NCBI GenBank assembly: GCA_024137785.1
Contig: JAHRHZ010000250.1
Coordinates: forward strand, 1,346,515 to 1,410,514
Source: Ginglymostoma cirratum
Taxonomy: Eukaryota
Reading direction: 5' to 3'
Length of the DNA stretch: 64,000 nucleotides
Within the stretch, counting starts at the first letter, position 1; every line of letters begins with the position of its first letter. The position numbers and the translations under genes were made by a program. Shown piece after piece: positions 14,591-64,000 of the stretch. The notes beneath the pieces were generated by a model. That model was not told the origin of the DNA. It did no database searches and worked only from the letters and a program-made list of their open reading frames with translations.

Positions 14591-14754
14591 TTTGGACAAA
14601 AAAAAGGATTTAGATAAAATTATCCAAGTGATTTAAGAAACATTCAGGTATTTGTTGCATTGCAGTTGATTCGAATTTAAAGCAAACTGATAATTCATGT
14701 ATATTTTCATGGTGCGGACATATTGTGAAACAACGGGAATGTTGTACAGTGGAA

Positions 14755-17223
14755 ATGAGATGTAAAATATTTTGGTTTCTAACATGCCAGTTGTTCTACT
14801 GTGTATTCTCCTCGCGGAATCTAGTGTTTGGGCAAATTCGTTACTCGATTCCAGAAGAACTGCAACTCGGCGCCTTTGTTGGGAATATCGCCGAGGATTT
14901 GGGTTTAGGTATAAAGCAGCTCTCGGCTCGTAGTTTTCGAATTGTGCCCGGTCCTAGGAAACAATACGTGGACATAGGCATGGACGCTGGGATATTATTT
15001 GTGAAGGAAAAAATTGACAGGGAAGAGATTTGTGGGCCAGGCTTGAGTTGCGTTTTATCCATGAGCGGTTTACTTCAAAACCCCTTAAAGCTGTACCCGA
15101 TTGAAGTGGAGATTCTCGATGTAAATGACAACACTCCCAGTTTCCCAAAGAGACAATTCCACCTTGAAATTTCAGAGCTTTCTTCGACGGGAACGCGCTT
15201 TCCACTCGAGTCAGCGCATGACGCGGACGTTGGAACCAACTCTGTACAATCCTACGACCTTCTTTCTAACAATCATTTTGTTCTCGATGTGCAGCTGCGC
15301 GATGAAGTAGAAAAATTACCAGTGCTGGTGCTGCAGAGTTCTTTGGATAGAGAAAAAGAATCTACTCACAGTTTAATACTGATAGCCAAGGACGGTGGTG
15401 CCCCTGTCAGATCGGGCACGGTTCAGGTTATAATCATTGTAAAGGATGCAAACGACAACACCCCTGCCTGCTTACAGTCAATTTATCGAGTCAGTATATT
15501 AGAAAATACAACCACGGGAACGCAGGTAATCGCATTAAATGCTACTGACCCGGACGATGGCCACAATGGAGAGATAACTTACTCGATCAGTAGCCACAGT
15601 ACCTTTGGAGTTCGGGATGTATTTAGCGTGGATTCAAAAACTGGTGAAATTAGAGTGAAAGGAAAATTGGACTATGAAGAAAACAAAGCATTTGGTATCA
15701 ATGTTCAAGTAACAGATGGGGCTCCGGACGCTATGTCGGGGCACTGTGAAGTGTTGGTGAACATTCTCGATGTGAATGATAACCCACCTGACATGACGTT
15801 GACGTCTTTGTCTGGCGCAATTTCAGAAGATGCTCCTATTGGGACTGTAGTCGCTCTGTTCAGCGCTGCAGACAAAGATTCAGGGAGAAACGGGCAAGTA
15901 CAATGCCATGTTTCAAACAAATTACCCTTTAGAATAGATTCTTCTTTGAAGAATTATTATGGATTGCTCGTTCAACATCCACTGGATCGTGAAAACAGAT
16001 CCAACTATGACGTTACAATAACATGCATGGATGCAGGACATCCACCTCTCACGTCCAGGAAAACCATCCGGGTAGAGATTTCCGACATAAATGACAACCC
16101 GCCGAGGTTTTCGCAGCATTTGTACACCGCAATTGTCATGGAGAACAATGCTATTGGCGCGTCTATTTTTTCCATCACAGCCTTTGACCCAGATGCGGAA
16201 ATGAACACGCAACTGAAATACTCTATCCTGGAGACTCGGGTTCTGAACGCCTCGGTAGCCACTTACGTCTCTATTAACTCGGAGACTGGCGTCATATACG
16301 CGCAGAGATCTTTTGATTACGAGAAATTGAAAAACTTTCAGGTTCAAGCTCAGGTCATGGACTCTGGGACACCACCACTCGCAAGTAATGTTTCCGTGAA
16401 TATTATTATCCTCGATCAGAATGACAATGTTCCAGTCATTGTGCAACCATTAGCCGAGTTTGGATCAGCAGCAGTCGAGACAATATCCAGGTTTGCTGAA
16501 CCAGGCTACTTGGTTGCTAAGGTATCGGCCACGGACGCTGATGCCGGTCAGAACGCTCGACTCTCTTACACCATTTTTCAGGCTAACCAGCATGGCCTCT
16601 TTACGATTTCACCAGACACTGGGGAGATTTGGACTATCCGTCCGATCGTTAATAAAGATGCCTCTAAGCAAAGGTTGGTGATTGTAGTAAAAGATAACGG
16701 AAAACCATCGCTTTCTGCCTCAGTGACCATCAACTTATCTGTGATTGGTGGTGACACTGACCCATTCTCCAGTATCAGTGGTTCGCCTGAAATACCTAGT
16801 TTCCATCAAGATCTGAGCCTTTCCTTAGTCATCGCGTTAGGAGTAATTTCTATCATTTTTCTTGTGATTTTAATAATCCTTGCTGTGAAGGTTCATAAAA
16901 GCAGAAATGCTTTGGGTAGTCAACACTGTTCCCTGGGGTCGTGTTGTTGCCTTGAAAGCAGACATTCTCTGAATGGAATTCAAACGGCCAGTAGAAACCT
17001 CCAAATACCCCCGAACTATGTTGAGGTATTCGGAGGTGACCCACTTTCTCAGCGCTTCCGCTATGAGTCATGCTCAACATTACAGTCAACAAAGAGGGAA
17101 TTCAGAACAAGCAACACATGCAGGGGATCTCCAGACAAACACTTGGTCGGGAATTATTTTATCAGGAAAGAAAGTACAGCACTCATTAAGCTTGAAAATT
17201 ACAGCAACTCTGTAAACAACGAG
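14755..17223 (+). CDS. Clustered protocadherin variable exon (unit 3), 823 codons
   Basis: Signal peptide then QIRYSIPEE, EC1 C-x5-C motif, six repeats with DRE/DxNDNxP motifs, TM, cytoplasmic segment; phase-0 donor GAG|GTGAGG. Confidence 0.95.
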
Positions 17224-18779
17224 GTGAGGGAAATTTTATATTTAAAAAGTAGATTATGTTTATCACAGAGTTGATCTGTGTATATATTTATTTGGGGTAG
17301 ATTGACCGCAACATAATTAATTGGATGAAAATAGTGGCTTAAATGAATCACACATTGTTCTCTGCTTTCTGTATCCTTTCTTTGTTATGGCATCTTGCAT
17401 GATATGTTTTAATTCCCTTGTGTTCCTTGTTATTAAACATATTTACCATTCGATATTAAAACATGTTGAGGAATCTGATGCTTCCCTTGACAATTTCCAA
17501 AACTACCAGAGTCTACTTACATGTTTAGGAATTTTTGACAGTCCCTCGTCCACTTCAAACATTTAATTGCTGTGTCTTGCTAAGAATCTATGTTTCCACA
17601 AATTACCAGAAGCAGTTTTGCGAACTTGTTCATTTTGATCAGGAGAATAGAACTGGGATATATCATTTAAATGAAAAAATATTGTACATCCAGAAGTACA
17701 GAAAGATCTTGGTGTCTTTGTATGATGACCCATTAGAAAAGTTACCTTACTTGATCCCTATTACTCCTAGGATTGTCAAAAAAAATGAAAGATTTAATCA
17801 AATTGCTCTAATATCTCAATATACCTGTCTGCTGGACCCAAATTAACAGAAAAGTCTGAGACCAGGTTCCTCTACTTAACAAGGTATCATATTTACTACA
17901 AATAAATTAATTCAAATATCAGCCAAATGAAATATGAATTATTATCAACCTATAACTCTGATAACTTAAAAACTTCAACTTGGTATGAAAAATTGGCACC
18001 CGATGCAGACAGACGCAGGAAAACAATCAAACGCACATCTTGTGGATGCAAAAAAGATGTAGCAGGGGAATCCAATTCAATGGCACCAGTCCACTAGATT
18101 CGATTAGATGTTCATTTGCTTCCTCGAATTCCGTCTGATCTCTGATCTTATTTCTGGTCCTTTCAGTTATTTCCTGCAGACACAAGATAATTGATACACT
18201 ACTGTTAAGTCTGTTGGTCACTGGTTAGAGGCAGAGCGTTACAACAAATAGTGGAAGAGTACAGCTAGCTATTTTTCAATATTTTCTTGCTTCACTGAAT
18301 AGAGACAGAAAGAAAGAGAGAGAGAATCACCAATTTTTGTTGTCTGGAGTTTTCTGCCTCTGTATGATTCACGCAGAGACTGTCCACGAGCCAGTCAAAG
18401 AGTTATCGCTATGCTGATGGTTTGGTATAAATTGAAAATAACACTCAATAAGACGTTTCCGAAGCAAAACCTGCACTGGAGATACACCCATAATGCTGAG
18501 ACTCAAACATTTTCCCCTCGAGTGGGGAGCAGCTCACACTGAGTTTCATCAATTTGCTTTTAAAAGTGCAACCTTTCGTCCTATAGTCCTTGATTTACAA
18601 CAGCATCCAATTCTCATTTTTGACCAAATCCAATTTTAAGAAAACATGAAGATTAACAGTTTTCACTTGAATATAAAACATCAAGTGATTGCGTTCAGAT
18701 ACAGAAAGTGATTTGGAAGGAAAACTGAGGGCTATAATTTATACAAAGTGAATGCAGCATCAAAGTGAATTTGCTTTGC

Positions 18780-21375: not shown

Positions 21376-21544
21376 TTTCCACAAATTTGAAGATTTAACT
21401 GAAACTTTCTCAGCAATTATCGGCGTATATAAGCATTTACTACATCGCAGTTGCTCCAGTATTTAAAATATATTGATCTAACTGGAAAACGAGTAGTTTA
21501 TGTTGCGTACAGATTCTGAAAAGACGGGCATGTTTGACACTGGA

Positions 21545-24482
21545 AAAGAGGCATTAAATTATATAGGCTGCTAAAATGTTCCTTATGCTACTGTATATTC
21601 TTCTCGTACAATCTACTGTTTGGGGAGATTCGTTACAGTATTGCTGAAGAACTGCAGACGGGCTCCTTTGTTCGAAATATCGCAGATGATGTAGTTTTTG
21701 ACGCAAAGCGGATCTCGGATGGTAGTTTTCAAATTGTACAGGACAGCAGGAAACAACATGTGGATTCATTTGGACACGGGCATTTTATTTGTGAAGGGCA
21801 AAAATTGACAGAAAAATGATTTGAGGCCCAAGCTTCAACTGTATTTTATCCTTGGGAGGTTGGCTTGAAAAGCCCTTAAAGCTGCTGAGATTGGTTGGCT
21901 CGCCGAGCTGGTTTGTTGACGTTTCGTTACCGTGCTTGGTAATATCCTCAGTGCAGCCTCTGATGAAGCGTCGGTGTGTTTTCCCGCTGGTTTTTCAACT
22001 CTGGGGTCCGTTGCGATGGATTGCCTCACTTCCGGGTTTCCTCAGTAGTGGAATGTATATGGGGTCGAGTTCAATGTGTTTATTAATAACATGCTTCGTG
22101 GAGTGCCATGCTTCCAGGAATTCTCGTGCTTGTCTCTGCCTAGCCTGTCCCAGGATCTTGGTGTAGTCCCAGTCGAAGTCGTGGTTCTCCTTGTCCATGT
22201 GTTAAAAACCAGGTGGAAAAACACACCGACGCTTCATCAGAGGCTGCACTGAGGATGTTACCAAGCACAGTAACGAAACATCTGCGGAACAACAAACCAG
22301 CTCGGCGAGCCAACCAACCTCAACACCCACAACCCGAGCTGCAGATCTACTCCAAAACCCTTGAAGCTCTACGAGGTTAGAGTGGCGATTCTCGACGTGA
22401 ATGACAATGCTCCCAGTTTTGAAGAGAAAGAATTTCGCCTTGAAATGTCCGAGCGCTCCAGGCTGGAAACGTGCTTCATCTTCGAGTCCGCGCAAGATTC
22501 CGAAGTTGGAACTAACTCCGTCCAAACCTCTGGGCTACTTCCCAATGACTATTTTATTCTCGATGTATAAATGCGCAATGGCAAAGAGAAATTGCCTGTT
22601 TTTGGTGTTGCAGAGTTTCTTGGATAGAGAAACCGAACAACAGGCAAACGCTGAAGGCCAAGGGTGGGGGGTTCCCGAAAGATCGAACACCGTACAGATC
22701 TCTATTAACGTAAAAGAGGCAAACGACTACGCCCCTGTCTTCCCCCAGTCAGTTTATAGAATCAGCCTGTTGGAGAGTACAACGACAGGAACACAGGTAA
22801 TCATTTTGAACGCCACTGACTTGGACGATGGTCCCAATAAAGAGATAACTTCGATCAAGGGTCACACTTCAGCTAAAGCTCGGGAACTGTTTGGCGTGGA
22901 TTCCAAAACTGGTGAAATCAAAATGAAAGGCAAGTTAGACTATGAAGAAAACAACGCCATTGAAAGTGACATACACGCAACAGACGCAGGACCTTACACT
23001 GTACCGGCGTACTGCGATGTTCTGCTGAATATTGTTGACGTGAATGATGATCTCCCTGAGGTGAAGTTGATGTCTTTGTCTCGCACAGTTTCAGAAGATG
23101 CTCAGGTTGAGACTCTAGTCGCTCTGTTCAATGCAACCGATAACGATTCGGGCAGATACAAGAAGGTACAGTGTCAAATTTTAAATGAGTTACCTTTTAA
23201 GTTAGATTCGTCTTTGGAGGATTATTGTGGAATACTTGTTCAAATTCCACAGGATCCGGAAAATGTGCCCAAGTATGACGTTACTATAGCAGCACTGATG
23301 AGGGAAATCCTCCTCTTACATCCGAGAAATCCATTTGGGTAGAGATTTTCGATATAGGTGACAATACACCACGGTTTACGCAGTCTTTAAACACCGCAAA
23401 CGTCATGGAGAGCAATATTATTGGCGCTTCTATATTTTGCATGACAGCCTTTGATACAGATGTGGAATTGAACGCTCGACTGAAATATTCAATCGTGGAG
23501 CTTCGAGGTCAGAACTCTTCGGTATCCAATTACGTTTCTGTTAACTCGGAGACTGGTGTCATATTCGCTAGGAGATATTTTGACTCCGATAAACTGAAAA
23601 ACTTTCAAATCTCATCTCGGGTCATGGACTCTGGGATACCACCAATTGTGAGTAATGTTTCATTAAAAGTCATTATTCCTGATCAGAATAACAATGTTCT
23701 CGTCAGTGTGCAGTCATTAGCCGAGTTTTGGGCAACAGCGGCAGAGACAATACACAGATTTGCAGTACCAGGCTAGTTGGTTGACAAGGTATCCGTCACT
23801 GACGCTGACGCCTGTCAGAACGCTTGTGTTTCTTATTCGATTTTTCAGACCACCCAGCATAATTTTTTTTACTATTTCATCAGAAACTGGGGAAATCGGA
23901 CAATCCGTCGTTTTGCGAATAAGATATTTCTAAACAAAAGACTATTGATTCTGGTGAAAGATAATGGAATGCCATTACTTTCTGCCTCGGTAACCATCAT
24001 CTTATCTGTGGCTAGCGATGACACTGAAACATTCTCCAGTGTCAGTGGCTCGCCTGAAGATCCCCGATTCACTCTGTATCTGAGCTTTTCCTTGGTCATC
24101 GCATTCGGAACAAATTCTATCATTTTTCTTGTTGTTTTAATAATCGTCACTGCGAAGGTTCATAAAAGCAGGAATGCTTTGGACGGTCAGTACCGTTCCT
24201 TGGGAGGGTGTTGTTGCGTTAAAACAAGGCATGCTCTGAATGGAATTCAAAATACCAGTAGAAACCTCCAGATACCCCAGACTATGTTGAGGTATTCGGG
24301 AGAAATCCCTTTCGTCGGTTATGAGTCATACTTTAACATTTCAGCCAACCAAGAGTGACTTCAAAACTCACAATGCCTTGCAGTTATCGACAGACATGAA
24401 TTATGTGCAGAACGATGCTAGTGGGAAATAAACCATGAGAATTATTAATTCTGAATGTGACAGTAACTCTGTTATCTAAGAG
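21545..24482 (+). pseudogene. Decayed cPcdh variable exon (unit 4)
   Basis: Start codon lost (GGAAAAGAG); multiple frameshifts and stops (ORF pieces 22361, 22401, 23405, 23777); insertion in EC1; donor GAG|GTGAGG at 24482/24483. Confidence 0.92.
21884..22353 (-). mobile_element. Penelope-like insertion with inverted arms in pseudo-exon 4
   Basis: ORF 21995-22198(-) HDFDWDYTKILGQ...AREFLEAWHS...INKH (GIY-YIG C-terminal part); arms 21886-21999 and 22201-22322; flanked by AAAAGCCCTTAAAGCT / AAAACCCTTGAAGCT. Confidence 0.8.
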
Positions 24483-28580: not shown

Positions 28581-28725
28581 ATTTTGAAGAAAAGTAGAAG
28601 ATTTAAATGCGATATTTCCGAAAGATTTATGAAGCAGTCAGGTACTTGTTACATCGCAGTTTTGTTTTTGACGTTTCACATGGTGAACGCACGTTCTGAA
28701 ACAAAGGGAATCTTTACCGCTAGAA

Positions 28726-31188
28726 ATGAGATATAAAACATACTGGTTGCTAAAATGCCAATTATTCTACTGTGCGTTGTACATGTGGAATCCAGTGCTT
28801 GGGCTGATTCGTTACTCAATTCCCGAAGAACTGCAGCTGGGTTCCTTTGTTGGGGACATCGCCGAGGATTTGGGTTTGGATGTAAAGCAGCTCTCAATTC
28901 GTAGTTTTCGGATTGTATCCAAGCCCAGGAAACAATATTTGGATGTAAATTTAGACACTGGAATTTTACTTGTGAAGGATAGAATTGACAGAGAAGAGAT
29001 TTGCGGCCTGAGCCTGAGTTGTGTTTTATTTTTGGACGGTTTGCTTGAAAACCCCTTAAAGCTGTACCCGATTGCAGTAGAGATCGTCGATATAAACGAC
29101 AATGCTCCCATTTTCCCAAAGATACAATTCCGCGTTGAAATTTCGGAGCTTTCTACCGCGGAATCGCGTTTTCCCCTTGAATCTGCATACGACTCAGATA
29201 TTGGAACGAACGCCGTGCAAACCTACGAGCTCCAACCGAATAATTATTTTATTCTAGATGTGCGCAGCGGCGAAGAAAAGATGCCAGTATTGGTGTTGCA
29301 GAGTCCCTTGGATAGAGAAACCGAATCCAGCCACAGTTTAACGCTGATAGCCAAGGACGGCGGGGTCCCTGTGCGATCGGGCGTGTTGCAGATCTCAATT
29401 ATCGTAAAGGATGCAAACGACAACGCCCCTGTCTTCCCCGAGTCAGAATATGGAGTCAACATATTTGAGAATTTAGCCACAGGAACACAGGTAATCATAT
29501 TAAATGCCACTGACTTGGACGATGGTCCCAATGGAGAGATAAACTACTCGTTTGGTAGCCACACGTCAATTACAGCTCGGGAACTGTTCGGCATAGATTT
29601 CAAAACTGGTGCGATCACAGTGATAGGGAAGTTGGACTATGAAGCAAACAAGGTCTTTGAGATTGCCGTTCAGGCAGTAGACAGGGGTTCAGAGGCAATG
29701 TCCGGGCACTGTGTAGTTTTCGTGAATATTATTGACGTGAATGATAATCCCCCTGAGGTGACTTTGACGTCTTTGTCGACTGCAGTATCGGAAGATGCGC
29801 CAATTGGGACTCTAGTTGCTCTGTTCAGAGCAACAGATAAAGATTCGGGGAGATATGGACAGGTACAATGTCAAATTTCAAATAAACTGCCATTTAAACT
29901 GGACTCCTCGTTGGAGAATTATCATGGAATACTTGTTCAAAATCCACTGGATCGTGAAAATACCTCGTTGTATGATATTAGTATCACATGCTCGGATGCA
30001 GGAAATCCTCCGCTTGTATCAGGAAAAAACGTTCGAGTCGACGTTTCGGATATAAATGACAATGCCCCACGGTTCACTCAGTCATTATATACCGCAAACG
30101 TAATGGAGAACAATGCGATTGGCGCTTCTATATTTTCCATTACAGCTTTTGATCCAGATGTTGGACTAAATGCTCTACTGAAATATTGTATCCTGGAGAC
30201 TCAAGTTCACAACGTCCCCATAAATACATACATCTCGATTGACTCGGAAACTGGTGTCCTATTCGCTCAGCGAACTTTTGATTACGAGGAATTGAAAAAC
30301 TTTCTGTTCCAAGCTCAGGTCGTGGACTCTGGGTCGCCATCACTCGCAAGTAATGTTTCAGTAAAAGTTATTATCCTTGATCAGAATGACAATGTTCCAG
30401 TTATTGTGCAGCCAAAAGCAGAGTTTGGGGCAACAGCCATAGAGACAATATCCAGACTTGCAGAACCAGGTTCTTTGGTTGCGAAAGTATCGGCCACTGA
30501 CGCGGACGTTGGACAAAACGCTCTGCTTTCTTATTCGATTTTCCAATCATCCAATCATAATCTTTTTACTATTTCCCCAGACACTGGGGAGATTTGGACT
30601 ATCCGTCGTCTTGAGAATAGAGATGCAAATAAGCAAAGTTTGATTATTGTAGTAAAAGATAATGGAACACCATCACTTTCTGCCACAGTAACAATAATCT
30701 TATCTGTGATAGGCAGTGACACTGAAACATTCTCCAGTGTCAGTGATTTGGCTCAAGAACCCGTGTTCACTCATGATTTGAGCTTTTCCTTGGTCATTGC
30801 ATTAGGTGCTATTTCTATAATTTTTCTCGTGATTTTAATAGTCCTCACCGTGATGGTTCATAAAAACAGAAATGCTTCAATTCGTCAGCAATGTTCCCTG
30901 GTGGCGTGTTGTTGTCTTGAATCAAGGCATTCTTTGAATGGACTTCAAAAAGCCAGCCGAGAACTCCAAATACCCCCGCACTATGTTGAAGTATTCGGTG
31001 GTGATCCACTTTCTCAAAGATTCCGCTATGAGTCATGTTCAACATTGCAGTCAACAAAGAGAGACTTCACACCCTCAAAACCATCTAGGTCATCTACAGA
31101 CAAGTATTATTTCCAGAATATGTCTATTAGGAAAGAAGGTACGACAAAGATTAATTCTGAAAATCACAGCATCCCATTAAATAACGAG
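28726..31188 (+). CDS. Clustered protocadherin variable exon (unit 5), 821 codons
   Basis: Intact signal-EC1-6-TM-cytoplasmic ORF; donor GAG|GTAAGG. Confidence 0.95.
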
Positions 31189-35929: not shown

Positions 35930-36170
35930 ATTAATTGTGCAACAATAAATCTAAACATGAGCATTTCATTCAGACCGTCCAGCTTTAAGAAATCGAGATT
36001 AATTTGGTTGGTTGAATTTCAATAAGTCGGTGTTCACCAATCAGAAGCTGAGTTGCGTTTGGGGATCCGGCCAGCCCCTTCACGACACAGACACCATCAC
36101 ATCCGATCAGACGCAGAGTAAAATTAGATAGCGAGCAGCTCGGCAGGATTTGTTCACAAATCCACTGAAA
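35930..36170 (+). promoter_or_regulatory. cPcdh promoter cassette (unit 6)
   Basis: GTCGGTGTTCACCAATCAGAAGCTGAG (CCAAT 36037, 306 bp upstream of ATG); GACACCATCACATCCGATCAGACGCAG. Confidence 0.8.
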
Positions 36171-36342
36171 ATTTCAGAGAAAAAAAAGGATATTAAATCA
36201 AATAATCCCACGAATTTGTGAAACATTCAGGTATTTATTACATGGCAGTTGTTTCGGATATAAAATACATTGACATAGCTATGAAGAGGATAATTCATGG
36301 TGCGGGAATGTTCTGAAACAACGGGAATGTTTAACGCTGGAA

Positions 36343-38808
36343 ATGAGATGTAAAATATATTGGATGCTAAAATGCCGGACACTGTGCTGTGTACTCTCCT
36401 TGTGGAACCTGGTGTTTGGACAAATTCATTACTCGATTCCTGAAGAACTGCAGCTGGGCGCCTTTGTTGGGAATGTCGCTGAAGATTTGGGCTTAGATGT
36501 AAAACTGCTCGCGGCTCGCAGTTTTCGGATTGTGTCCGGGCCCAGGAAACAATATGTGGACATAAACCTGGACACTGGTATTTTGCTGGTGAAACAATCA
36601 ATTGACAGAGAAGAGATTTGCGGCCCAAGCTTGAGTTGTGTCTTATCTTTGAGCGGTTTGCTTCAAAATCCCTTAAAGCTGTACCCGATTGCAGTAGAGA
36701 TTCTCGACATAAATGACAACACTCCCAGCTTCCTAAAGAGACAATTTCACCTTGAAATTTCAGAGCTTTCTTCGCCGGGAACGCGCTTCCCTCTCGAGTC
36801 GGCGAACGATCCAGACGTTGCAACCAACTCCGTGCAAACCTATGAGCTCCTTCCCAACAATTACTTCGTCCTTGATGTACAAATGCACGATGGGGAAAAA
36901 TTGCCAGTTTTGGTGCTGCAGAGTTCCTTGGACAGAGAAACTGAATCCAGACACAGTTTGACACTGATAGCCAAGGACGGCGGCATCCCTGTGAGATCGG
37001 GCACTGTTCAGGTTTTAATCACCGTAAAGGACAGAAACGACAACGCCCCTGTCTTCCCCCAGTCGGTTTACAGAGTCAGCGTGTTGGAGAATGTAGCAGC
37101 AGGAACGCAGGTAATCAAATTAAATGCCACTGACTTGGATGGTGGTCCTAATGGAGAGATAACCTATTCACTCAGTAGCTACAATTCTGCCAAATCTCGG
37201 GAAAAATTTAGTGTGGATTCGAAAACTGGTGAAATCAAAGTTAGAGCGAAGTTGGATTATGAAGAAAGTACGGTATTTGAAATTAATATTAAAGCCGTAG
37301 ACGGAGGTTCTGACGCTATGTCGGGGCACTGTGATGTCTTAGTAAATATTATTGACGTGAATGATAACCCACCGGTGGTAACATTGACTACTTTGAAGAG
37401 TACACTCTCTGAAGATGCTCCATTTGGGACTGTAGTCGCTCTGTTCAGTGCAACAGATAAAGATTCGGGGATAAACGGGCAGGTACATTGTAAAATTCCG
37501 ATTAAACTACCCTTTAGCCTAGATTCGCCTTTGGAGAATTATTACGGATTAATTGTTCAACATCAGCTGGATCGAGAAAGTATCTCCAAGTATGACATTA
37601 CTGTAACGTGCACGGATGCAGGGAATCCTCCTCTCACATCCAAAAACACCATTCGGGTAGAGATTTCCGATATAAATGACAACGCGCCGAGGTTTGCGCC
37701 GTCTTCATACAAGGCAAGCGTGATGGAGAACAATGATTTTGGCGCTCCTATATTTTCCATTTCAGCCTTTGATACAGATATTGGCCTGAACGCTCGATTG
37801 AAATACTCTATCCTGGAGACTCAAGTTCACAACGCCTTGGTATCCACTTACGTCTCTATTAACTCGAAAACTGGAGTAATATTCGCACAACGATCCTTTG
37901 ACTACGAGAAATTGAAAAGTTTCCAGTTCCAAGCTCAGGTCATGGATTCTGGATCGCCACCATTGGCCAGTAATGTTTCAGTGGATGTTGTTATCCTTGA
38001 TCAGAATGACAATGTCCCAGTAATCGTGCAGCCAATGGCCGAATTTGGATCAGCCACAGTGGAGACAATATCCAGGTTCGCAGAACCAGGCTGTTTGGTT
38101 GCCAAAGTATCTGCCACTGACGCTGACGCGGGTCAGAACGCTCGCCTTTCTTACTCCATTATTGAAGCTACCCATCGTAATCTATTTACTATTTCACCAG
38201 ACACTGGGGAGATTTGGACTATCCGGCGCATTGCGAGTAAAGATTCTACGAAGCAAAGCTTGGTGATTCTCGTAAAAGACAATGGAAAACCATCTCTTTC
38301 TGCTACAGTGACCATCATCTTATCTGTGGTTGGTGGTGACACTGAAACATTCTCCAGCGTCAGTGGTTCATCTAAGGACCCTCGCTTCGGCCCTGATATC
38401 AGTCTTTCTTTGGTCATCACCTTAGGGGTAATTTCTATCGCTTTTCTTGTGATTTTAATTATTCTCGCTGTGAAGGTTCATAAAAGCAGAAATGTTTTAG
38501 GTGGTCAGCACTGTTCCCTGGGGGCATGTTGCTGCCTTGAAAACAGACATTCTCTGAATGGAATTCAAAAGGCGAGTAGAAACCTTCAGATACCCCCAAA
38601 CTATGTTGAAGTATTCGGAGGTGATCCCCTTTCTCAGCGCTTCCGCTATGAGTCATGTTCGACATTGCAGTCAACAAAGAGAGACTTCGTAACCCCCAAC
38701 ATGTGCAGGTCATATACTGACAAAAAGTATGTTCGGAATGATTCTCTTGAGAAAGAAAGCACGAGAATGATTGACTCTGAATGTAACAGCAACTCTGTAT
38801 ACAAAGAG
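36343..38808 (+). CDS. Clustered protocadherin variable exon (unit 6), 822 codons
   Basis: Intact signal-EC1-6-TM-cytoplasmic ORF; donor GAG|GTGAGG. Confidence 0.95.
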
Positions 38809-38904
38809 GTGAGGTTCTTTTAAAAAGTTAAGGTATTGACAGATTTGATTTGGTAATATATTTCTCAAAGGGTTGAGACATTTGGAGACACGGAATATGC
38901 TGGG

Positions 38905-44845: not shown

Positions 44846-45019
44846 ATTTTCAGAGAACAATAGAAGACTTACAATAAACAATCCGAGCGGTTCGTGAAAC
44901 ATTCAGGTATTTACTACACCGCAATTGTTTCGGATATAAAATGCATTCATATAACCTGAAAGAGGAAAGCTGATGGTGCGGGCACGTTCTGAGAAAAGGG
45001 GAAATGTTTGAAGCTGGAA

Positions 45020-47488
45020 ATGAAATATAAATTATATAGGCCTCTAAAATGCCAAATCTTCTACTGTATATTTTCTTTGTGGAATCTGGCGTTTGGGCAG
45101 ATTCATTATTCAATTCCTGAAGAACAACAACTCGGCACCTTTATTGGGAATGTTGCTGAGGATTTGGGTTTAGATGTAGAGCAGCTGTCGGCCCGCAATT
45201 TGCAGATTGTGCACGGTCCTAGCACACAATATGTTGATATCAATTTAGACCGTGGTATTTTATTTGTGAAGGAAACAATTGACAGAGAAGAGATTTGCGG
45301 GCCGAGCTCCAGTTGCGTGCTATCCTTGGACGTTTTCCTTGAAAACCCATTGAAGCTGTATCAGTTTGCAGTGGATATTTTCGATATAAATGACAATGAG
45401 CCCAGTTTCCCTAATAGACAATTGCACCTTGAAATTTCAGAGCTTTCTCCTCCAGGAATGCGCTTTAGCCTCGAGTCCGCGCATGATTTGGACGTTGGAA
45501 CCAACTCAGTGCAAAACTACGAGCTCCTTCCGAGCGATTATTTTATTCTTGATGTACAAACGCGCAGCGGTGAGGGAAAATTGCCGGTATTAGTACTGCA
45601 GAATGCTTTGGATAGAGAAATGGAATCCAGCCACAGTTTAACGCTAATCGCAAAGGATGGCGGAGTTCCGGTGAAATCGGGTACGGTTGAGATAACAATC
45701 CTCGTTAAGGACACAAACGACAACGCCCCTGTCTTCCCCCAGTCAGTTTATAGAGTCAACCTATTGGAGAATATAACCACAGGAACGCAGGTAATCCTAT
45801 TAAATGCCTCTGATTCAGACGATGGTTCCAATGGAGAGATAACCTACTCGTTCAGTAGGTACTGTTCGGCCAAGGCTCGGGAAAAGTTTGCCGTGAATTC
45901 CAAAACCGGTGAAATCCGGGTGAAAGGGAACCTAGACTATGAAGAAAATAAAGTGTTTGAAATTAACATACAAGCTACAGACGGAGGTCCTGATGCTATG
46001 TCGGGGCACTGTGATGTTTTGGTGAATGTTATTGATGTGAATGATAACCCACCTGAAGTGAAGTTGACGTCTTTGTTGAGTACAATTTCGGAAGATGCGC
46101 CAGTTGGGACTGCAGTCGCTCTGTTCAGTGCAGCAGATAAAGATTCAGGGAGAAACGGGCAGATACAATGTCAAATATCAAACAGATTACCCTTCAGACT
46201 AGATTCTTCATTGAAGAATTATTATGGAATACTTGTTCAACATACATTGGATCGTGAAATTATCTCTATGTACGACATTACAATTACATGCATGGATGCA
46301 GGAAATCCATCTCTTACATCCGAGAAAACCATTTGCGTCGAGGTTTTAGATATAAACGACAATGCGCCACAGTTCACGCAGTCTTTACACACAGCAAACA
46401 TAATGGAGAACAACATTATTGGAGCTTCTATATTTTCCATTACTGCCTTTGATCCGGATATCGGAGTGAACGCTCGACTGAAATACCTAATTCTGGGGAC
46501 TGACGTTCAGAAGGCTTCGGTATCCAATTACGTCTCTATTAACCCAGAGACGGGTGTCATATTCGCTCTGCAATCGTTTGACTACGAGCAACTGAAAAAC
46601 TTTCAGATTCAAGCTCAGATCATGGACTCTGGGACACCACCTCTGGCAAGCAATGTATCAGTGGATGTTTTTATCATCGATCAGAATGATAATGTTCCAG
46701 TCATTGTACAGCCATTAGCCGAATTTGGGTCAACAGCAGTTGATACAATATCCAGGTTTGCAGAACCAGGCTATTTGGTTGCCAAAGTATCGGCTACTGA
46801 CGCTGACACCGGTCAGAACGCTCGCCTCACTTATTCCATTTTTCAAGCTACCCAGCCTGGGCTTTTTACTATTTCGCCAAACAGCGGGGAAATTTGGACT
46901 ATCCGTCGTATTGCGAGCAAAGATGCCTCTAAACAAAGGTTGGTGATTCTGGTAAAAGATCATGGAATACCATCATTTTCTGCCACAGTGACCATCATCT
47001 TAACTGTGGTTGGTGGTGACACTGAAAGATTGTTCAGCGTCAGTGGCTCATCTGATGATCCCGAATCCACTCCTGTTCTGAGCATTTCCTTGGTCATCGC
47101 ATTCGGTGTAATTTCTTGCATGTTACTAGTGATTTTAATCATCCTCGCTGTGAAGATTTATAAAGACAGAAATTCTTTAAGTAATCAGCACAGTTCTCTG
47201 GGATTCTGCTATTGCTTTGACACCAGACATTCTGTGAATGAAATTCAAAAAACTAGTAGAAACCTTCGGATAGCCCCAAATTATGTTGAGGTATTTGGGG
47301 GAGATCCACTTTCGCAAAGTTTTCGTTACGATTCGTGTTCAACATTGCATTCAACAAGAAGAGACTACAAAACTGCCAATACATGCAGGTCGTATACAGA
47401 CAAGAATTTTGTTCAAAATGAGACTTTCGGGAAAGAAAGCACGACAATGGCTAATTCTGAATATAACAGCAAATCTGTAAACAACGAG
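45020..47488 (+). CDS. Clustered protocadherin variable exon (unit 7), 823 codons
   Basis: Intact ORF from ATG 45020; donor GAG|GTGAGA. Confidence 0.95.
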
Positions 47489-52660: not shown

Positions 52661-52699
52661 CAAAGGCAGCTAAAACTATAAACGAGGAAACAGAGCTCA

Positions 52700-54602: not shown

Positions 54603-54835
54603 TTTTTAATTGTGCAACAGTATTTGCGCTCATTTCAGAACTCCCAGCTTTAAGAAATCAACGATAATTTGATTGGACGAATTTAAACGTGCTGCTCTTC
54701 ACCAATCAGAACTTGAAATGTGGTTCGGGATCCGGACGGCCCCTTCACTACCCAGACACCATCACGTCTGATCAGACACTGAGTCAAATTGGATGGCAAG
54801 CAGCTCGGCAGGAATTCTTCACGAATCGAATGGAC
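54603..54835 (+). promoter_or_regulatory. cPcdh promoter cassette (unit 9)
   Basis: GATTGG, TGCTCTTCACCAATCAG (CCAAT 54702), CCCTTCACTACCCAGACACCATCACGTCTGATCAGAC. Confidence 0.8.
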
Positions 54836-55003
54836 ATTTTAGAGAAAATAGAACAATTAAATGATATAAGCGGAGCGATTCGTGAAACGTCAAGGTATTT
54901 GCTATGTCGCAGTTGTTTTCGATACAAAAAACGACAAAACTATAAAGAGAATAATTAATGCTGCGGGTGCATACTGAAATAAGGGGAATGTGTGACTCTG
55001 GAA

Positions 55004-57472
55004 ATGAGGTATAAAATATTTTGGTTTTTAAAATGCCAATTCTTGTACTGCGTATACTCTTCTTGGAATCGAGTATTTGGAGAGATTCGTTACTCAATTC
55101 CTGAAGAACTGCAACTCGGCGCCTTTGTTGGGAATATCGCTGAGGATCTCAGCTTAGATGTAAAGCAGCTCTCGGCTCGCAATTTACGAATAGTAGCCGG
55201 TCCCAACAGACAATGTGTGGATATAAATTTGGACATTGGCATTTTAATGGTTACGAAAACAATTGACAGAGAAGAGATTTGCGGACTGAGCCTGAGTTGT
55301 GTGCTAAGCTTCAACGTTTTCCTTGAAAACCCTTTAAAGCTGTACCAGGTTGCAGTGGAGATTCTCGATGTAAATGACAATGCTCCTAGTTTCCCAAATA
55401 CACAATTCCGCCTAGAAGTGCCAGAGCGCTCTATTCCTGGAACGCGCTTTCAACTCGAGCCCGCGCACGATCTGGACGTTGGAACCAACTCCGTGCAAAC
55501 CTATGAGCTCCTTCCGAACGATTATTTTATTCTTGATGTACAGATGCGCAGTGGTAATGTAAAATCGCCGGTATTGGTGCTACAGAGTTCCTTGGATAGA
55601 GAAGCAGAAACCAGCCACATATTAACGTTGATAGCCAAGGACGGCGGAATGCCCGTGAGATCGGGCACGGGTCGGGTTTTGATAATTGTAAACGATGCAA
55701 ACGACAATGCTCCTGTCTTCTCCCAGTCAGTTTACAGAGTCAGTCTGTTAGAGAATGCAGCCACAGGAACGCAGGTAATCACACTAAATGCCACTGACTT
55801 GGATGATGGCCCAAATGGAGAGATAAGCTACTCATTTGGTAGCCACACTTCAGCTCGAGTTCGGGAAATGTTTGGGGTGAATTCCAAAACTGGTGAAATT
55901 ATAGTAAAACGGACGTTGGACTATGAACAAACCAGTGTCTTTGAGTTAAACATTCAGGCTACAGACGGAGGTTCTGACGCTATGTCGGGGCACTGTGATG
56001 TTTTGATAAATATTATTGATGTGAATGATAACCCACCTGAGGTGAAGTTGACGTCTTTATCAAGTACAATTTCGGAAAATGTAGCAGTTGGGACTGTAGT
56101 CGCTCTGTTCGCTGCAGCAGATAAAGATTCGGGGAGAAACGGACAGGTACAATGTCATATTTCAAATAAATTGCCATTTAAACTGGATTCTTCTTTAAAG
56201 AATTATTATGGAATACTTGTTCATCATTCACTTGACCGTGAAAATACCTCCATGTATGACGTTACAATAACATGTTCGGATGCAGGAAATCCTCCACTTA
56301 CATCCGAGAAAAACATTCGGGTCGAGGTAACCGATGTGAATGACAACGCGCCACAATTCAGTCAATCTGTGTTTACAGCAAGCCTAATGGAGAATAATGA
56401 TATTGGCGCTTCTATACTTTCCATTACAGCCTTTGATCGTGATGTTGGAGTGAACGCTCAACTGAAATACATTATTATGGAGACTCAAATTCAGAATGCC
56501 TCCGTATTCAATTACATCTCTATTAGCCCGGACACTGGTGTCATATTCGCTCAAAGATCTTTTGACTATGAGCAACTGAAAAATTTTCAGATTCAAGCTC
56601 AGGTCATGGACTTTGGGACGCCATCACTCGCAAGTAATGTTTCAGTGAATGTGATTATCCTGGATCAAAATGACAATGTTCCAGTCATTGTACAGCCAGT
56701 GGCCGAATTTGGGTCAATAGCAGTTGACACAATATCCAGGTTTGCAGAACCAGGCTATTTGGTTGCCAAGGTATCCGCCACTGACGCTGATGCCGGTCAG
56801 AACGCTCGTCTTTCTTATTCCATTTTTCAGGCTACCCAGCATAACCTTTTTACTATTTCACCAGACACTGGGGAAATTTGGACGATCCGTCGTGTCGTTA
56901 CTAACGATGCCTCTCAGCAAAGGTTGGTGATTCTGGTAAAAGATAATGGATCACCATCTCTTTCTGCTTCAGTGACTATTGTCTTAACTGTAATTGGTGA
57001 TGAGGCTGAAATGTTATCCAATGTCAGTGGTTCATCTAAAGACCCCGGGTTTAGTCCTGAACTGAGCCTTTCCTTGGTCATCACATTCGGAAGCATATCT
57101 GCCATTTTTCTCGTGATTTTAATTATTCTCGCTGTGAAGGTTCATAAAAGCAGGAATCCACAGAGCGGTCAGCACTGTTCCCTCGGAGTTTGTTGCTGCA
57201 TTGAAACTGTACATTCTCTGAATGGAATTCAAAAGGCCAGTAGAAACCTTCAGATACCCTCGAATTACGTTGAGGTATTCGGTGGTGACCCACTTTCTCA
57301 GAGTTTCCGTTATGAGTCATGTTCAACATTGCAGTCAACAAGGAGAGACTTCATAACCCCCAACAGATGCAAGTCACCCACGGACAAAATGTATGCCCAG
57401 AATGATTATGTTGGGAAACAGGATCCACAGTTGCTGCCCACTGAGAAGGTCAGCAACACTTTGTACAATGAG
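55004..57472 (+). CDS. Clustered protocadherin variable exon (unit 9), 823 codons
   Basis: Intact ORF from ATG 55004; donor GAG|GTGAGC. Confidence 0.95.
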
Positions 57473-57519
57473 GTGAGCCATTTCGAAAATGGGAATAGGT
57501 TTTTTTTAATTCTTTCAAG

Positions 57520-58075: not shown

Positions 58076-58082
58076 GGTTGTC

Positions 58083-59040: not shown

Positions 59041-59114
59041 TTTACAATTTGCAACTTACAATCGCCCTGTTATTTGAAGGGTATTATTTAGCAGACGTTT
59101 CAGAAGTGATTTAC

Positions 59115-60060
59115 CAGGATGTTGCCGGGAATGGAGCCTTTGAATTATAAAGAGAGGATGGATAGGCTGGGAGATTTTGTTTTCCACTGGAGCATTGGAG
59201 TTTGAGGGGTGACCTTATCGAGGTTTACAAAATATTGAGGATATGGATTGAGTGAATGGAAGGTGTCTTTTCCCTCGGGTGGGGGATTTCAAGACTATGG
59301 GGCATAGTTTTCAGTGAGAGTAGAAAGATTTTAAAAAGACATGGGGGTGACTTTTTAACACAGCGCGTGTTTTGTGTGCAGAATGAACTTCCGGATGAAA
59401 TTGTGAATGAAGGTATTGTTACAATGTTTAAAAGATGCTTAGACGAGGAGATGAATATGAAACGTCTGGAGGTATATGTGCCAACGAGAGGAAGATGGTA
59501 CTCGTTTAGTTTGCAATAATGGTCAGTGTAGAATGGTTGGATAGAAAGATGTGTATCCGTGCTGTATGACTGTATGAATCTACTGTGATTAAGTGTAATT
59601 CCAGTAAGTTCAAAAGTCATATTTACCTATTGGTCGGTGGTCCACATCATTTTCAGATTCTTTTTAAGTCTATAGTTGCTTACTTATAAGCATTGAAAAT
59701 GTAGACACTACAAAGATCAAAGAACAGCACAGCATCGTAACAAGCCATTTGACCCACCAAGACTGCGCTAACACATGATGCCTTTTGAAACTAAAAACCT
59801 TTTGCCTCTACATGGTCTGTATCCCTCTGTTCCCTAATTATTCACATGCCTATCAAGATGCCTCTTAAGTGTTTTTATTGTGCCTGCCTCCATCAGATTC
59901 TCTGATAGCCCATTCCAGGCATTTACCACCCTCTGCTTAAAAACCTGATTCTCACATCTCCTTTAAACTTGTCCCCTTTTGACTTAAGCCTGTGTTCACT
60001 AGTATTGACAGTTCTTCCCTGGGGAAAATACTCTGGATATCCATTGTATCCATGATTCAT
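59115..60060. mobile_element. Two CR1-type LINE 3' fragments, tail-to-tail
   Basis: Plus copy ~59115-59590 (FLTQRVF..QNELP), minus copy ~59715-60060. Confidence 0.65.
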
Positions 60061-61139
60061 CCATTACCGAAACTCCCTAATCATTTATATATTAACTCTG
60101 TGTAAAGACTCTCAGCTTAGATATAACAACACAAACACAGAGCGTGTTCGCTGACAGCAGGATTGCAGTCCTAACCAAAGGTTACAAAGTAGTTACGTAA
60201 CGTCTCGGTTTGAAATAGATCCAAGCAAAGAAGATTTGAAGTTGCTGAGGGCTCTGACACAAATTCGAGCGAAATCAATGAATCATCTTGATGGTTCTGG
60301 AATGCTCTTGTACATGCAAATAAATTGCCTCATGTCTGTAAAAATACAATTTGCAAGGTTACTTGGAAGTAATTGCTGGTATATTCATTATTTTAAGTCC
60401 TCTCTTCATTACATGGTTGTGTACTAGATAATGCAGTAAACAGTAAATCCCACTATTGCAGACATAGTGAGTAATAATATGAACTGAGGGGCTACAATGT
60501 GTATTTACACACTATTTTGAATGCAAACTCGACCAGGCCTGTTTTCCCATCCACTACACAACCCCGCTCTTCGATTATTCCCAACTTTTATACCGACCCC
60601 ATAGAGAATACAAAGCCAGCCATAATCCATCTTGCATCATACACTGTAATTATATTTAAATAAAATCAAAATGTGTAAGAGAAACGAATCAGATCTGGTT
60701 GCATCTGAGGAGAGAGAAACGAAGTTCATGTTTTGAGTCCAATATGACTGTCCATCAAACGATCCATAAAAACCTAAAACATTTTCCCAGTTCCTCTTTA
60801 TGAAGTTTCTGCCAGACCTACTGAGTTTATCCAGCACATTTGGCTATTAATTCAGATCTCCAGCATCCACAATATTTTACTGTAATCACATTTGGCAATT
60901 ATTTATTCACTTCAAGTGATCCTGTTTTTGAGTAATAAAATGTTGCTACAGTGGATGAATAAATAATAAATAGTAACTGTTGACAAATTGGATGGTTAAA
61001 ATCGGTTGCGAATATTTAAATAGTGAAGCATCAGAAAATTAATGGCTAGTGTAATAAGTAGGGTTCAAAAATGTGCTTAGTAGAAGGGAAAGGTAATCCT
61101 GATCTAATTACTCATTATAAAACATCTCTCAAGTGATTT

Positions 61140-61880
61140 TTCCCAGTATTTATGATGTAGAATTCTGTAAGCTCACAAACATTTGACTAAAAAAATGTTT
61201 CCATATCTCAGTCTTAAATGGTCTACCCTCTATCCTGAGACCGTGACCCCTGGGGTTACACGTCCCAACTAGAGAACTCATCTTCCCTCTACCTGATCTG
61301 TCCAGCTTGTTGGAATTTTATATGCTTCTATCAAATCTCCTCTCATCCCTACACTGCCAGTCGAAATTTCTCATAAACTAATGTCAGCCCAGTGGAACCT
61401 TTTCAACACTCCCTCGATGAGAAGGATATCCTTTCTTCGGGACAGAGACCAAACCTGCATGCTATACTCAAGGTGTAATTTCACCAAACCTTGTTGTCGT
61501 AAGATATTCCTACTTTGGAACGCATATCTTCTTCCAATGAAAGACAATAAACCCCACTGCCTGACTACTTTCATTGGCACACGTGCACAGACACAGGGTC
61601 CTTGCATATATCCACGTCTGGAAGTCTTCTTCCAAACTTCTGATGGCTCAAAATCTCATCAGTTTTGTATCGTCAACAAACGTAGAAATGTTGCATTATA
61701 ATTTGTTCCTTCATCCTGGTCATAAATATTATATACATAATATATACATATGAAACGCTGTGGCTGAAACACCATACCTTGCGGTATGCAAGTTTTCAGT
61801 ATATACCACTGAGAACACAAACGTCTCTTTCATCAATCTCTCTGTTTCATCTCTGTCAACCAAATTTCAATCCATGACAA
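61140..61880 (-). mobile_element. CR1-type LINE fragment
   Basis: ORF 61371-61607(-) LVKLHLEYSMQVWS..RRKDI. Confidence 0.7.
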
Positions 61881-62751
61881 TTTATTAACATGTATCGTAT
61901 GTAGTTTAATTTTGCTTCCTAAACTCATTTCTCTGATATTACCAGGTTGATCATGGAACACCATAAAGGCATTATTTTTTGGAAACCAAAAACGTGTATT
62001 TGGATGCATTTGGAAATAAATCATCTCAAACCCTGACAAATTATTATGCCAACCATTCTTCAAATTCTTTCCATGAGAAATCCTGGAATGTTGCGTGTTG
62101 GACTCGCCAAAAATACATTTCATGCCTTAGAAATTGAACAATGTCCATGTTCTTTGGAGGCCTCTCGTAACTCTATGTTTTCGAACTGCTGATGCAACTA
62201 TTGCATGACTCAGCTTCGAAAACAGAAGTTCACGTGTGTGTTCCTTCATTTTCTTGAAAGCGACAGATAACCTTGAAAATACCACAATATCTATCTTGGA
62301 CCATAGTGTAAGACGTGAGGGAGGAATAACTCAATCTGCGTATAATTCTCCACAATTGTGCATGGCACCAGATTGGAAAGATTTTTTTCCACGGATTAAT
62401 ACATCCATAATACAGTGAATGGAAATTATTACAAGTGACACTGGATAGTAATATGGAATCTGAAAGTGAAATTGAGAATAGTAATGCCTATTTTCACATT
62501 TCTCATCAAAAGGTGAACGATGAAATATTTTTGTGTTCCTGTAGTGAGAAATGCCCAATTTGGCAACAGAATGCAATGACCAAGAACCAGAGCTGAATTA
62601 TAAATTAAACAATACTTACACAGAAATGAGGCATATAACAAATGTTATTTTATTCTTATTTCTCCTGTCATGTGTAGTATGTTGTCATTGCTTTCCAGAT
62701 GTAACTTTGATACACGGGAGAAACAATACAGTTCATTACATCTTAAAATAT

Positions 62752-62995
62752 TTTTTAGTGTGCAACAATAAATCTGGACAATTGCACTCACTGCAGAACT
62801 CCCAGCTTTAAGAAGCCAACGGTAATTTGATTGGTCAAATTTAAATGTGCTGCTCTTCACCAATCAGAACTTAAGATGTGGTTGGGGATCCGGACAGCCC
62901 CTTCACTACCCAGACACCATCACGTCCGATCACGCACAGAGATAAAATTGGATTGCAAGCGGCTCGTTCGGAATTGTTCACGAATCCACTCGACA
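62752..62995 (+). promoter_or_regulatory. cPcdh promoter cassette (unit 10)
   Basis: GATTGG, TGCTCTTCACCAATCAG (CCAAT 62860), GGATCCGGACAGCCCCTTCACTACCCAGACACCATCACGTCCGATCA. Confidence 0.8.
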
Positions 62996-63163
62996 TTGAG
63001 AAAAAATAGAAGACTTAAATGGTAGAATCCTAGCGATTCGTGAAATGTTCAGGTATTTACTACGGCGCAGTATCTTTCGAAATAAAAGCATTGATACAAC
63101 TATAAAGAGAATAATTAATGCTGCGGGTACATGCTGAAATAAAGGTAATGTTTGACTCTGGAA

Positions 63164-64000
63164 ATGAGATATAAAATATTTTGGCTTCTGAAATGCCAAT
63201 TCTTGTACTGCATATTCTTTTCTTGGAACCTAGTGTTTGGACAGATTCGCTACTCAATTCCTGAAGAACTGCAACTCGGCGCCTTTGTTGGGAATATCGC
63301 TGAGGATCTCAGCTTAGATGTAAAGCAGCTCTCGGCTCGCAATTTACGAATAGTAGCCGGGTCCAAAACACAACATGTGGATATAAATTTGGACATTGGC
63401 ATTTTAATGGTGACGAAAACAATTGACAGAGAGGTGATTTGCGGACCGAGCCTTAGTTGTGTGCTGAGCTTCAACGTTTTCCTTGAAAACCCTTTAAAGC
63501 TGTACCAGGTTGCAGTGAAGATTCTCGACGTAAATGACAATGCTCCTAGTTTCCCAAATACACAATTCCGCCTAGAAATCTCAGAGCTTTCTGTTCCTGG
63601 AACGCGCTTTCCACTCGAGCCCGCGCACGATCTGGACGTTGGAACCAACTCCGTGCAAACCTATGAGCTCCTTCCGAACGATTATTTTATTCTCGATGTA
63701 CAGATGCGCAGTGGTAATGTAAAATCCCCGGTATTAGTGCTGCAGAGTCCTTTGGATAGAGAAGCAGAAACCAGCCACAAATTAACGTTGATAGCCAAGG
63801 ACGGCGGAGTGCCCATGAGATCGGGCATGGTTCAGATCTCGATAATTGTAAATGATGCAAACGACAATGCTCCCGTCTTCTCCCAGTCAGTTTACAGAGT
63901 CAGTCTGTTAGAGAATGTAGCCACAGGAACGCAGGTAATCATATTAAATGCCACTGACTTGGACGATGGTCCCAATGGAGAGATAAGCTACTCATTTGGT
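63164..64000 (+). CDS. Clustered protocadherin variable exon (unit 10), 5' part, truncated by window end
   Basis: MRYKIFWLLKCQFLYCIFFSWNLVFGQIRYSIPEE... colinear without indels with unit 9 at an offset of 8160; absent from ORF track because no stop is reached. Confidence 0.9.
   Translation, partial: MRYKIFWLLKCQFLYCIFFSWNLVFGQIRYSIPEELQLGAFVGNIAEDLSLDVKQLSARNLRIVAGSKTQHVDINLDIGILMVTKTIDREVICGPSLSCVLSFNVFLENPLKLYQVAVKILDVNDNAPSFPNTQFRLEISELSVPGTRFPLEPAHDLDVGTNSVQTYELLPNDYFILDVQMRSGNVKSPVLVLQSPLDREAETSHKLTLIAKDGGVPMRSGMVQISIIVNDANDNAPVFSQSVYRVSLLENVATGTQVIILNATDLDDGPNGEISYSFG

What the first reader, a model, noticed from the sequence alone, without database searches (positions are those of the whole stretch)
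14709..63174. Conserved out-of-frame uORF overlapping the start codon of intact exons
Seen: an ATG exactly 46 nt upstream of the main ATG opens an 18-codon ORF (about M(V/L)RxxxExxGMxxxGNE(I/M/V)*) that crosses the main start and stops at TAA just after it: 14709-14765, 28680-28736, 36297-36353, 54958-55014, 63118-63174. In unit 7 a 1-nt shift shortens it (44973-45011) but an internal ATG keeps an overlapping uORF (45004-45030). In nonsense-bearing unit 2 the uATG is ATT and the internal ATG is followed by TAG. Known: overlapping uORFs repress main-ORF translation, leaving leaky scanning. Inference: a shared translational dosage control on cPcdh isoforms that I do not know to be described. The TAA may be a by-product of the Y/C-K codons.
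Basis: partly seen in the sequence, partly recalled or inferred. Interest (0 to 1): 0.7.

Follow-up and report, generated by a model that had tools for sequence, protein, structure and literature searches.

The report
Ancient decoy start codons in protocadherins
A family of shark nerve-cell adhesion genes has kept an extra start codon about 16 bases ahead of the real one, nearly always out of frame, through many old gene duplications; it likely lowers how much protein each gene makes, a known kind of control that has not been tested in these genes.

Summary
The window holds variable exons of the shark protocadherin-nu subcluster. The -46 ATG is present in all 6 intact window units but at that offset only in this subclade, and its conservation is modest (P about 0.02-0.04; 10 of 212 leader triplets are equally invariant). 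It is kept in 12 of 13 intact paralogs over about 5.8 neutral substitutions per site (simulated P 5e-6), with an invariant G at its -3 position. The one unit lacking it keeps the -46 ATG in the same frame. An RNA contig runs unspliced across both ATGs of unit 9. Neither the peptide nor the stop is conserved, and the pseudogene argument fails. Best reading (0.5): leaky overlapping uORFs that damp main-ORF initiation; translation was not tested. Main rival (0.3): a protein-binding nucleotide motif that happens to contain ATG. This scan earlier noted a -25 uATG in shark protocadherins of another genome; three units here have one too. A new member of a known kind.

The parts
14709..14765 (+). Unit 3: -46 uORF (18 codons), containing the -16 ATG at 14739 in the same frame; main ATG 14755
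28680..28736 (+). Unit 5: -46 uORF; the only intact unit whose -16 ATG is lost (ATC at 28710); main ATG 28726
36297..36353 (+). Unit 6: -46 uORF, -16 ATG at 36327; main ATG 36343
44973..45011 (+). Unit 7: -47 ATG after a 1-nt insertion; 12-codon ORF ending 8 nt before the main ATG (45020)
45004..45030 (+). Unit 7: -16 overlapping uORF (8 codons)
54958..55014 (+). Unit 9: -46 uORF, -16 ATG at 54988; main ATG 55004
54783..55003 (+). Unit 9 leader covered by one unspliced RNA contig with 0 differences; holds six uATGs (-211, -174, -143, -100, -46, -16)
63118..63174 (+). Unit 10: -46 uORF, -16 ATG at 63148; main ATG 63164
9052..9057 (+). Unit 2 (recent nonsense codon at 11174-11176): -16 ATG followed at once by TAG; upstream site reads ATT; main ATG 9068
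21500..21577 (+). Unit 4 pseudogene: both uATGs kept (21500, 21530) although the main ATG is lost
36343..38823 (+). Example variable exon (protocadherin-nu: signal peptide, six cadherin repeats, transmembrane segment, variable tail). Other intact starts: 14755, 28726, 45020, 55004, 63164
36228..36236 (+). Conserved splice-donor-like MAG|GTA in the leader (GT at 36231; also 8962, 14648, 28642, 44907, 54895, 63053); use not seen in unit 9

Best explanation
These shark protocadherin-nu genes have kept an upstream ATG about 16 bases before the start codon in 12 of 13 intact paralogs, and it likely acts as a leaky overlapping uORF that diverts part of the scanning ribosomes and lowers protein output. 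The -46 ATG is a second start in the same frame, found at that offset only in the window's subclade and probably younger; its weak context (pyrimidine at -3) would let most ribosomes pass. Ribosomes that miss both would start at the main ATG. Those that take a decoy would read past the main ATG out of frame and stop, with no protocadherin made and possibly some nonsense-mediated decay. The start codon and its context appear to be what is selected; the peptide and the stop are not. Shown: conservation, frame, context, and presence in the transcript of unit 9. Inferred: initiation at the uATGs, repression, and a purpose in dosage.
For: The 13 intact paralogs are old: fourfold-site tree length 5.7-5.8, and 0 of 69 fourfold sites are invariant. 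The -16 ATG changes once on that tree, P 5e-6 to 5.5e-5. An alignment-free count ranks AATG at -17 first among 4-mers, 12 of 13 units, against 8 for the best non-overlapping 4-mer. Its -3 base is G in 13 of 13 while -2 changes five times, the same pattern as at the main ATG (-3 G in 13 of 13). All 13 units have a uATG within 47 nt, 12 have an overlapping out-of-frame ORF, and 16 of 21 uATGs within 50 nt share one frame. The other 27 intact units examined are depleted of uATGs (9 seen, 21.8 expected) and 5 have an overlapping ORF. Unit 5, which lost the -16 ATG, keeps -46 in the same frame. The two indels between -16 and the main ATG give a 2-codon ORF closed by a stop and the other out-of-frame phase, never an open extension. 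An RNA contig specific to unit 9 spans 54783-55512 unspliced. In yeast reporters, out-of-frame uATGs within 30 nt repress in a way that depends on context and distance (PMC9743702, section 9 read).
Against: No ribosome, reporter or CAGE data. The A just before the -16 ATG is also invariant (13 of 13), and the base after it is always a pyrimidine, which a binding motif would explain as well. Neighbouring blocks (CTGAA at -30, CTGGAA at -6) are also conserved. The 13 units share one ancestor, so 12 of 13 against 5 of 27 is one evolutionary event and not independent trials. The fourfold tree rests on 69 near-saturated sites; at half the rate P is 0.003, which would not survive correction over 212 windows. 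Overlap is not always kept: one intact unit (C250:1321379) and the recently broken unit 2 have only tiny non-overlapping ORFs. The -16 ATG is also kept in 4 of 4 broken units with a leader. RNA evidence covers one unit and two runs of one study, and contigs cannot show start sites; shorter leaders may exist.
Confidence: 0.5

Rival explanations
1. The conserved thing is a nucleotide motif (G-n-A-A-T-G-Y, with CTGAA and CTGGAA beside it) bound by a transcription factor or RNA-binding protein; the ATG and its ORF are incidental and tolerated.
For: AAT is invariant while the G of ATG is the base that changed in unit 5; flanking blocks are conserved too. The site lies about 200 nt inside the transcript of a promoter family with several conserved elements.
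Against: The invariant G falls exactly at Kozak -3 with a free -2, as at the main ATG. The site resembles the TEAD core GGAATG (recalled, from no call), but the G next to AATG changes five times. RNAalifold finds no shared structure for -40..+12. Even an incidental ATG in this context would be expected to draw ribosomes.
Confidence: 0.3
2. Neutral inheritance: both ATGs arose once and persisted through duplications without selection. This may hold for -46 alone.
For: Outside the subclade the -46 position reads ACG, ACA, TTC or TTT, with ATG in one unit, so CpG decay from ACG could have made it (inference). 10 of 212 triplets are as invariant in the six units. Intact against broken units, p = 0.13.
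Against: It cannot account for -16 (P 5e-6 to 5.5e-5). The paralogs are old, 55-77% identical at fourfold sites apart from one pair at 88%, and papers report little gene conversion in elephant shark clusters (PMC2764143, passages).
Confidence: 0.08
3. The stretch -30..-1 is a real or relic in-frame N-terminal extension of the signal peptide (Glu-Cys codons spell the ATG), perhaps started at the CTG at -30.
For: The main frame is open from -30 in 8 of 13 units. Four of 48 listed homologs, annotated with longer N-termini that align here, keep Cys at this codon, including a sawfish.
Against: The frame is closed or shifted in 5 of 13 intact units. pN/pS is 0.83 in the main frame, 0.96 and 1.12 in the others, against 0.37 for the signal peptide. 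The invariant A and G sit at third codon positions. The main ATG aligns with the main ATG of the sister group, so -16 is not a displaced former start.
Confidence: 0.06
4. Most coding mRNAs lack the uATGs, because transcription starts downstream of them or the leader is spliced at the conserved donor-like site near -110.
For: A donor-like MAG|GTA is conserved in most units. Contigs cannot map start sites.
Against: CCAAT boxes lie about 290-330 nt upstream of the ATG. The unit 9 contig is continuous from -221, and no joint or loose end appears at 54895 in the two informative runs. No conserved acceptor lies between the donor and the ATG (by eye).
Confidence: 0.06

Closest known systems
Overlapping out-of-frame uORFs read by leaky scanning (ouORF/oORF; e.g. 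PMC13405301 abstract, PMC9743702 section 9)
   Same: AUG in the leader, out of frame, ORF ending inside the CDS; start context matters and the peptide does not.
   Different: Here the site is replicated and kept across 12 of 13 paralogous promoters of one tandem cluster. At 16 nt it lies at the edge of the ~17-nt range in which two AUGs compete in yeast. Translation is not shown.
ATF4-type delayed reinitiation (recalled, no call)
   Same: Short upstream ORFs followed by an overlapping out-of-frame ORF; a conserved TGA at -29 closes several upstream ORFs.
   Different: Spacings of 10 and 16 nt look too short for the delayed-reinitiation switch (inference), and the upstream short ORFs are not conserved.
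Protocadherin-nu subcluster of cartilaginous fishes
   Same: Variable exon with six cadherin repeats spliced to a shared constant exon; elephant shark 'Protocadherin nu15' is a hit (P0037, 70% over residues 1-70).
   Different: The control described in the passages read is transcriptional (CSE/CTCF, NRSE); none mentions a uORF.
-25 uATG group of shark protocadherins (earlier scan note e1-9216150)
   Same: Out-of-frame overlapping uATG at a fixed offset in all members of a paralog group; 3 of 3 such units in this genome.
   Different: The -25 ATG lies 82 nt before EC1 and aligns near the main ATG of relatives, so it may be a displaced start. The -16 ATG does not.

Membership tests
Overlapping uORF (oORF) | AUG upstream of the main AUG, out of frame, with its stop downstream of the main AUG | tested here: met
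   12 of 13 intact clade units, including all 6 intact window units
Overlapping uORF (oORF) | AUG lies inside the mature mRNA | tested here: met
   Unit 9 only: unspliced contig 54783-55512 with 0 differences; other units have no RNA data
Overlapping uORF (oORF) | Ribosomes initiate at the uAUG | not testable with these tools
   No ribosome profiling available; context is G at -3 for -16 and a pyrimidine at -3 for -46
Overlapping uORF (oORF) | Represses main-ORF translation | not testable with these tools
   Needs a reporter
Conserved-peptide uORF | Purifying selection on the encoded peptide and its length | tested here: not met
   pN/pS 5.3 in the uORF frame for five units and 0.96 for eight; the -16 ORF is 2 to 53 codons long
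In-frame N-terminal extension | Open main frame under coding constraint | tested here: not met
   Closed or shifted in 5 of 13; pN/pS 0.83
Clustered protocadherin, nu subcluster | Tandem variable exons with signal peptide, six cadherin repeats and a transmembrane segment | tested here: met
   Cadherin_2 plus five Cadherin repeats plus Cadherin_C_2; tandem array
Clustered protocadherin, nu subcluster | Variable exon spliced to shared constant exons | tested here: met
   An RNA contig leaves the unit 9 donor into the exon at C250:1450279
Clustered protocadherin, nu subcluster | Phylogenetic placement with elephant shark nu genes | tested here: inconclusive
   Assigned by the named hit P0037 and a shared constant-exon motif; no tree with other subclusters was built

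The most novel reading that the evidence does not exclude
Clustered protocadherin isoforms are dosed at translation as well as by promoter choice: separate shark paralog groups each carry a fixed decoy start (-16, -25, and the added -46), kept since before sharks and rays split, that sets a lower protein yield for whole subfamilies of the neuronal identity code.
Probability: 0.3. Interest if true: 0.65.

Novelty: new member of a known kind. Interest (0 to 1): 0.4.

Why it matters
Clustered protocadherins give neurons their self-recognition code, and the control described for them is promoter choice. A start-codon decoy kept across a whole paralog group would add a translational layer that scales isoform amounts, and it can be tested with a simple reporter. 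The mechanism itself is textbook, and the evidence is evolutionary plus one transcript.

Tried and rejected
Peptide function of the uORF: rejected. Selection on the stop: rejected; two intact units run 53 and 39 codons, one uses TGA, and 55% of Tyr/Cys codons in these genes end in T anyway. Shared RNA hairpin around -16: none by RNAalifold. Unit 2 as a loss-on-pseudogenization control: rejected. Raw RNA reads gave no test: X21 had 21 reads and none in the leader, X22 had none. No listed holder was on record as RNA; X1 is judged to be RNA from its spliced junction, and X3 from the same exon-limited coverage. RNA coverage of units 5-7 was not obtained, so leader extent and donor use outside unit 9 are open. 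No DNA of other sharks was examined; cross-species support is limited to annotated N-termini. The elephant shark cluster paper (PMC2268768) was not held and was not read. Nine literature searches listed no title on uORFs in clustered protocadherins; the library lacks most subscription papers, and no supplements were opened. The relatives look-up returned one unrelated bacterial note.
Full report
Setting. The window is G000:C250:1346515-1410514. It holds six intact variable exons (starts 14755, 28726, 36343, 45020, 55004, 63164), one with a single nonsense codon (9068) and three decayed ones. The proteins have a cadherin N-terminal domain, five more cadherin repeats and the protocadherin cytoplasmic motif. 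The closest proteins are from carpet sharks (94% to a whale shark protein over residues 1-70), and elephant shark 'Protocadherin nu15' is among the hits. Passages of PMC2764143 and PMC4978886 state that elephant shark has delta, epsilon, mu and nu subclusters. Constant exons matching the whale shark protein lie at C250:1450279, 1456296, 1484697 and 1495545.

Observation. To test them I fetched C250:997001-1610000 without gaps, and 4-9 kb around each further search hit upstream. Units upstream of 997 kb that the search missed (68 candidates scored) are not covered. Forty units with at least 760 open codons after EC1 were scored. Broken units and the hit on contig C217 were left out of the counts. 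Main ATGs were set by rule (the most upstream in-frame ATG 17-36 codons before EC1), which may be wrong for a few units outside the clade.

The window's units belong to a group of 13 intact paralogs at C250:1321379-1440578. They are old: fourfold-site tree length is 1.4 for the six window units and 5.7-5.8 for all 13, and 0 of 69 fourfold sites are invariant across the 13. The -46 ATG is invariant in the six, but so are 10 of 212 leader triplets; simulated retention is 0.021-0.038. Outside the six the column reads ACG, ACA, TTC or TTT, with ATG in one unit at -43. It is thus a subclade character with modest support, and it was picked out because it was conserved.

It is present in 12 of 13 (ten at -16, one at -15, one at -17), with a single change, in unit 5. 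It and the overlapping AAT are the two best-kept of 212 triplets, and an alignment-free count agrees. Simulated retention is 5e-6 at the fourfold rate, 5.5e-5 at the leader rate and 0.003 at half rate; the last would not survive correction over all windows. Its -3 base is G in all 13, -2 varies, and -1 is A in all 13; the main ATG also has -3 G in all 13. The -46 ATG has a pyrimidine at -3 in all six. An ATG at -15 also occurs in one unit of the sister group, so the site may predate the clade. Four annotated homologs with longer N-termini (two catsharks, whale shark, sawfish) keep Cys at the matching codon. This shows that the TG is kept but not the A before it, and such proteins are selected for an open frame.

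Across the cluster, 12 of 13 clade units and 5 of 27 others have an overlapping out-of-frame ORF starting within 50 nt. Shuffled leaders give about 0.35 and 0.29 per unit. Other units are depleted of uATGs (9 against 21.8 expected) and the clade is not (21 against 12.8). The units share ancestry, so this describes one retained state and is not a test with 40 independent trials.

What is not conserved. The peptide shows no constraint (pN/pS 5.3 and 0.96). The stop moves: the -16 ORF has 8-9 codons in most units but 15, 39 and 53 in others, and 2 in the -15 unit. The main frame upstream of the ATG is closed or shifted in 5 of 13 and has pN/pS 0.83, so an extension is unlikely. Unit 2 is 93.8% identical to an intact whale shark protein, like intact units (93.3-96.6%), so its nonsense codon is recent and its leader changes cannot be put down to gene death. 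Among four broken units with a leader, -16 is kept in 4 and -46 in 2.

Transcript. Run X1 has a 730-nt contig at 54783-55512 with no differences; units 9 and 10 differ at 51 of 316 aligned positions in this stretch, so it is specific to unit 9. Another X1 contig, with 14 differences, leaves the exon donor at 57472 into constant exon 1. Coverage is nil upstream of 54761 and just inside the intron, so X1 is RNA. X3 has the same coverage pattern. Both uATGs are therefore in at least some unit 9 leaders, together with four more upstream ATGs. No joint or loose end was seen at the leader's donor-like site. The raw-read runs were uninformative. Contigs do not show start sites or rare forms, and X1 and X3 come from one study.

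Mechanism. From established scanning rules, a weak -46 start and a moderate -16 start would each capture part of the 43S complexes; the rest would reach the main ATG. Li et al. (PMC9743702; abstract and section 9 read) show in yeast that out-of-frame uATGs within 30 nt repress by context, repress less as they near the main ATG, and lower mRNA through NMD. A preprint abstract (PMC13405301) reports that repression by overlapping uORFs in Arabidopsis depends on Kozak context rather than length. This fits a conserved start with a free peptide and stop. I put this reading at 0.5, a binding motif with incidental ATG at 0.3, and the remaining rivals at 0.06-0.08 each.

Novelty. Overlapping uORFs are well known. 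Nine searches (listings only) showed no title on uORFs in clustered protocadherins, and the passages read in PMC7811963, PMC2926608, PMC4978886 and PMC3308164 do not mention one. The primary elephant shark paper was not held, and supplements were not opened. Verdict: a real and old sequence feature, better placed at -16 than at -46, a new member of a known kind, function untested. Interest 0.4.

Noticed in passing
window 8962, 14648, 28642, 36231, 44907, 54895, 63053 and clade units outside the window: Splice-donor-like MAG|GTA about 85-120 nt before the ATG in nearly all clade units, reading GC in two; AGGTA is invariant in the six intact window units. 21 of 40 units score 7 of 9 or more against 10.9 expected. 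It could join the leader to constant exon 1 or serve as a U1 site; no use seen in unit 9.
   Followed up: partly
G000:C250:904590, 942689, 963988: Three neighbouring units share an out-of-frame overlapping ATG at -25, 82 nt before EC1, near where relatives have their main ATG; possibly a displaced former start.
   Followed up: partly
G000:C250:1230795, 1251192, 1255963 leaders: Donor-like site near -90 followed by a pyrimidine tract and AG near -58, too close for an intron; also an in-frame stop at -9 in all three, with ATG at -15 in one.
   Followed up: no
window e.g. 36313-36317 (-30..-26 of each unit): Conserved CTGAA; its TGA closes many upstream ORFs 26 nt before the main ATG.
   Followed up: partly
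window 9068-11554 (unit 2): Single nonsense codon in the transmembrane segment plus a one-codon deletion, while whale shark and bamboo shark orthologs are intact: a recent loss or an assembly error.
   Followed up: partly
window 56995-57474 (unit 9, 3' part): RNA contigs differ from the assembly at 19 listed positions checked, 12 of which equal the unit 10 base: another allele, possibly shaped by gene conversion between units 9 and 10.
   Followed up: partly
G000:C250:1336764 (L021/L022): Broken unit whose upstream ATG is at -45, in frame, giving a 15-residue extension; a catshark protein (P0027) has the same kind of extension.
   Followed up: no
window about -330 to -230 of each unit (e.g. 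36010-36110): Promoter has two opposed CCAAT boxes and a conserved C-rich block, without a clear CGCT box in the window units.
   Followed up: no
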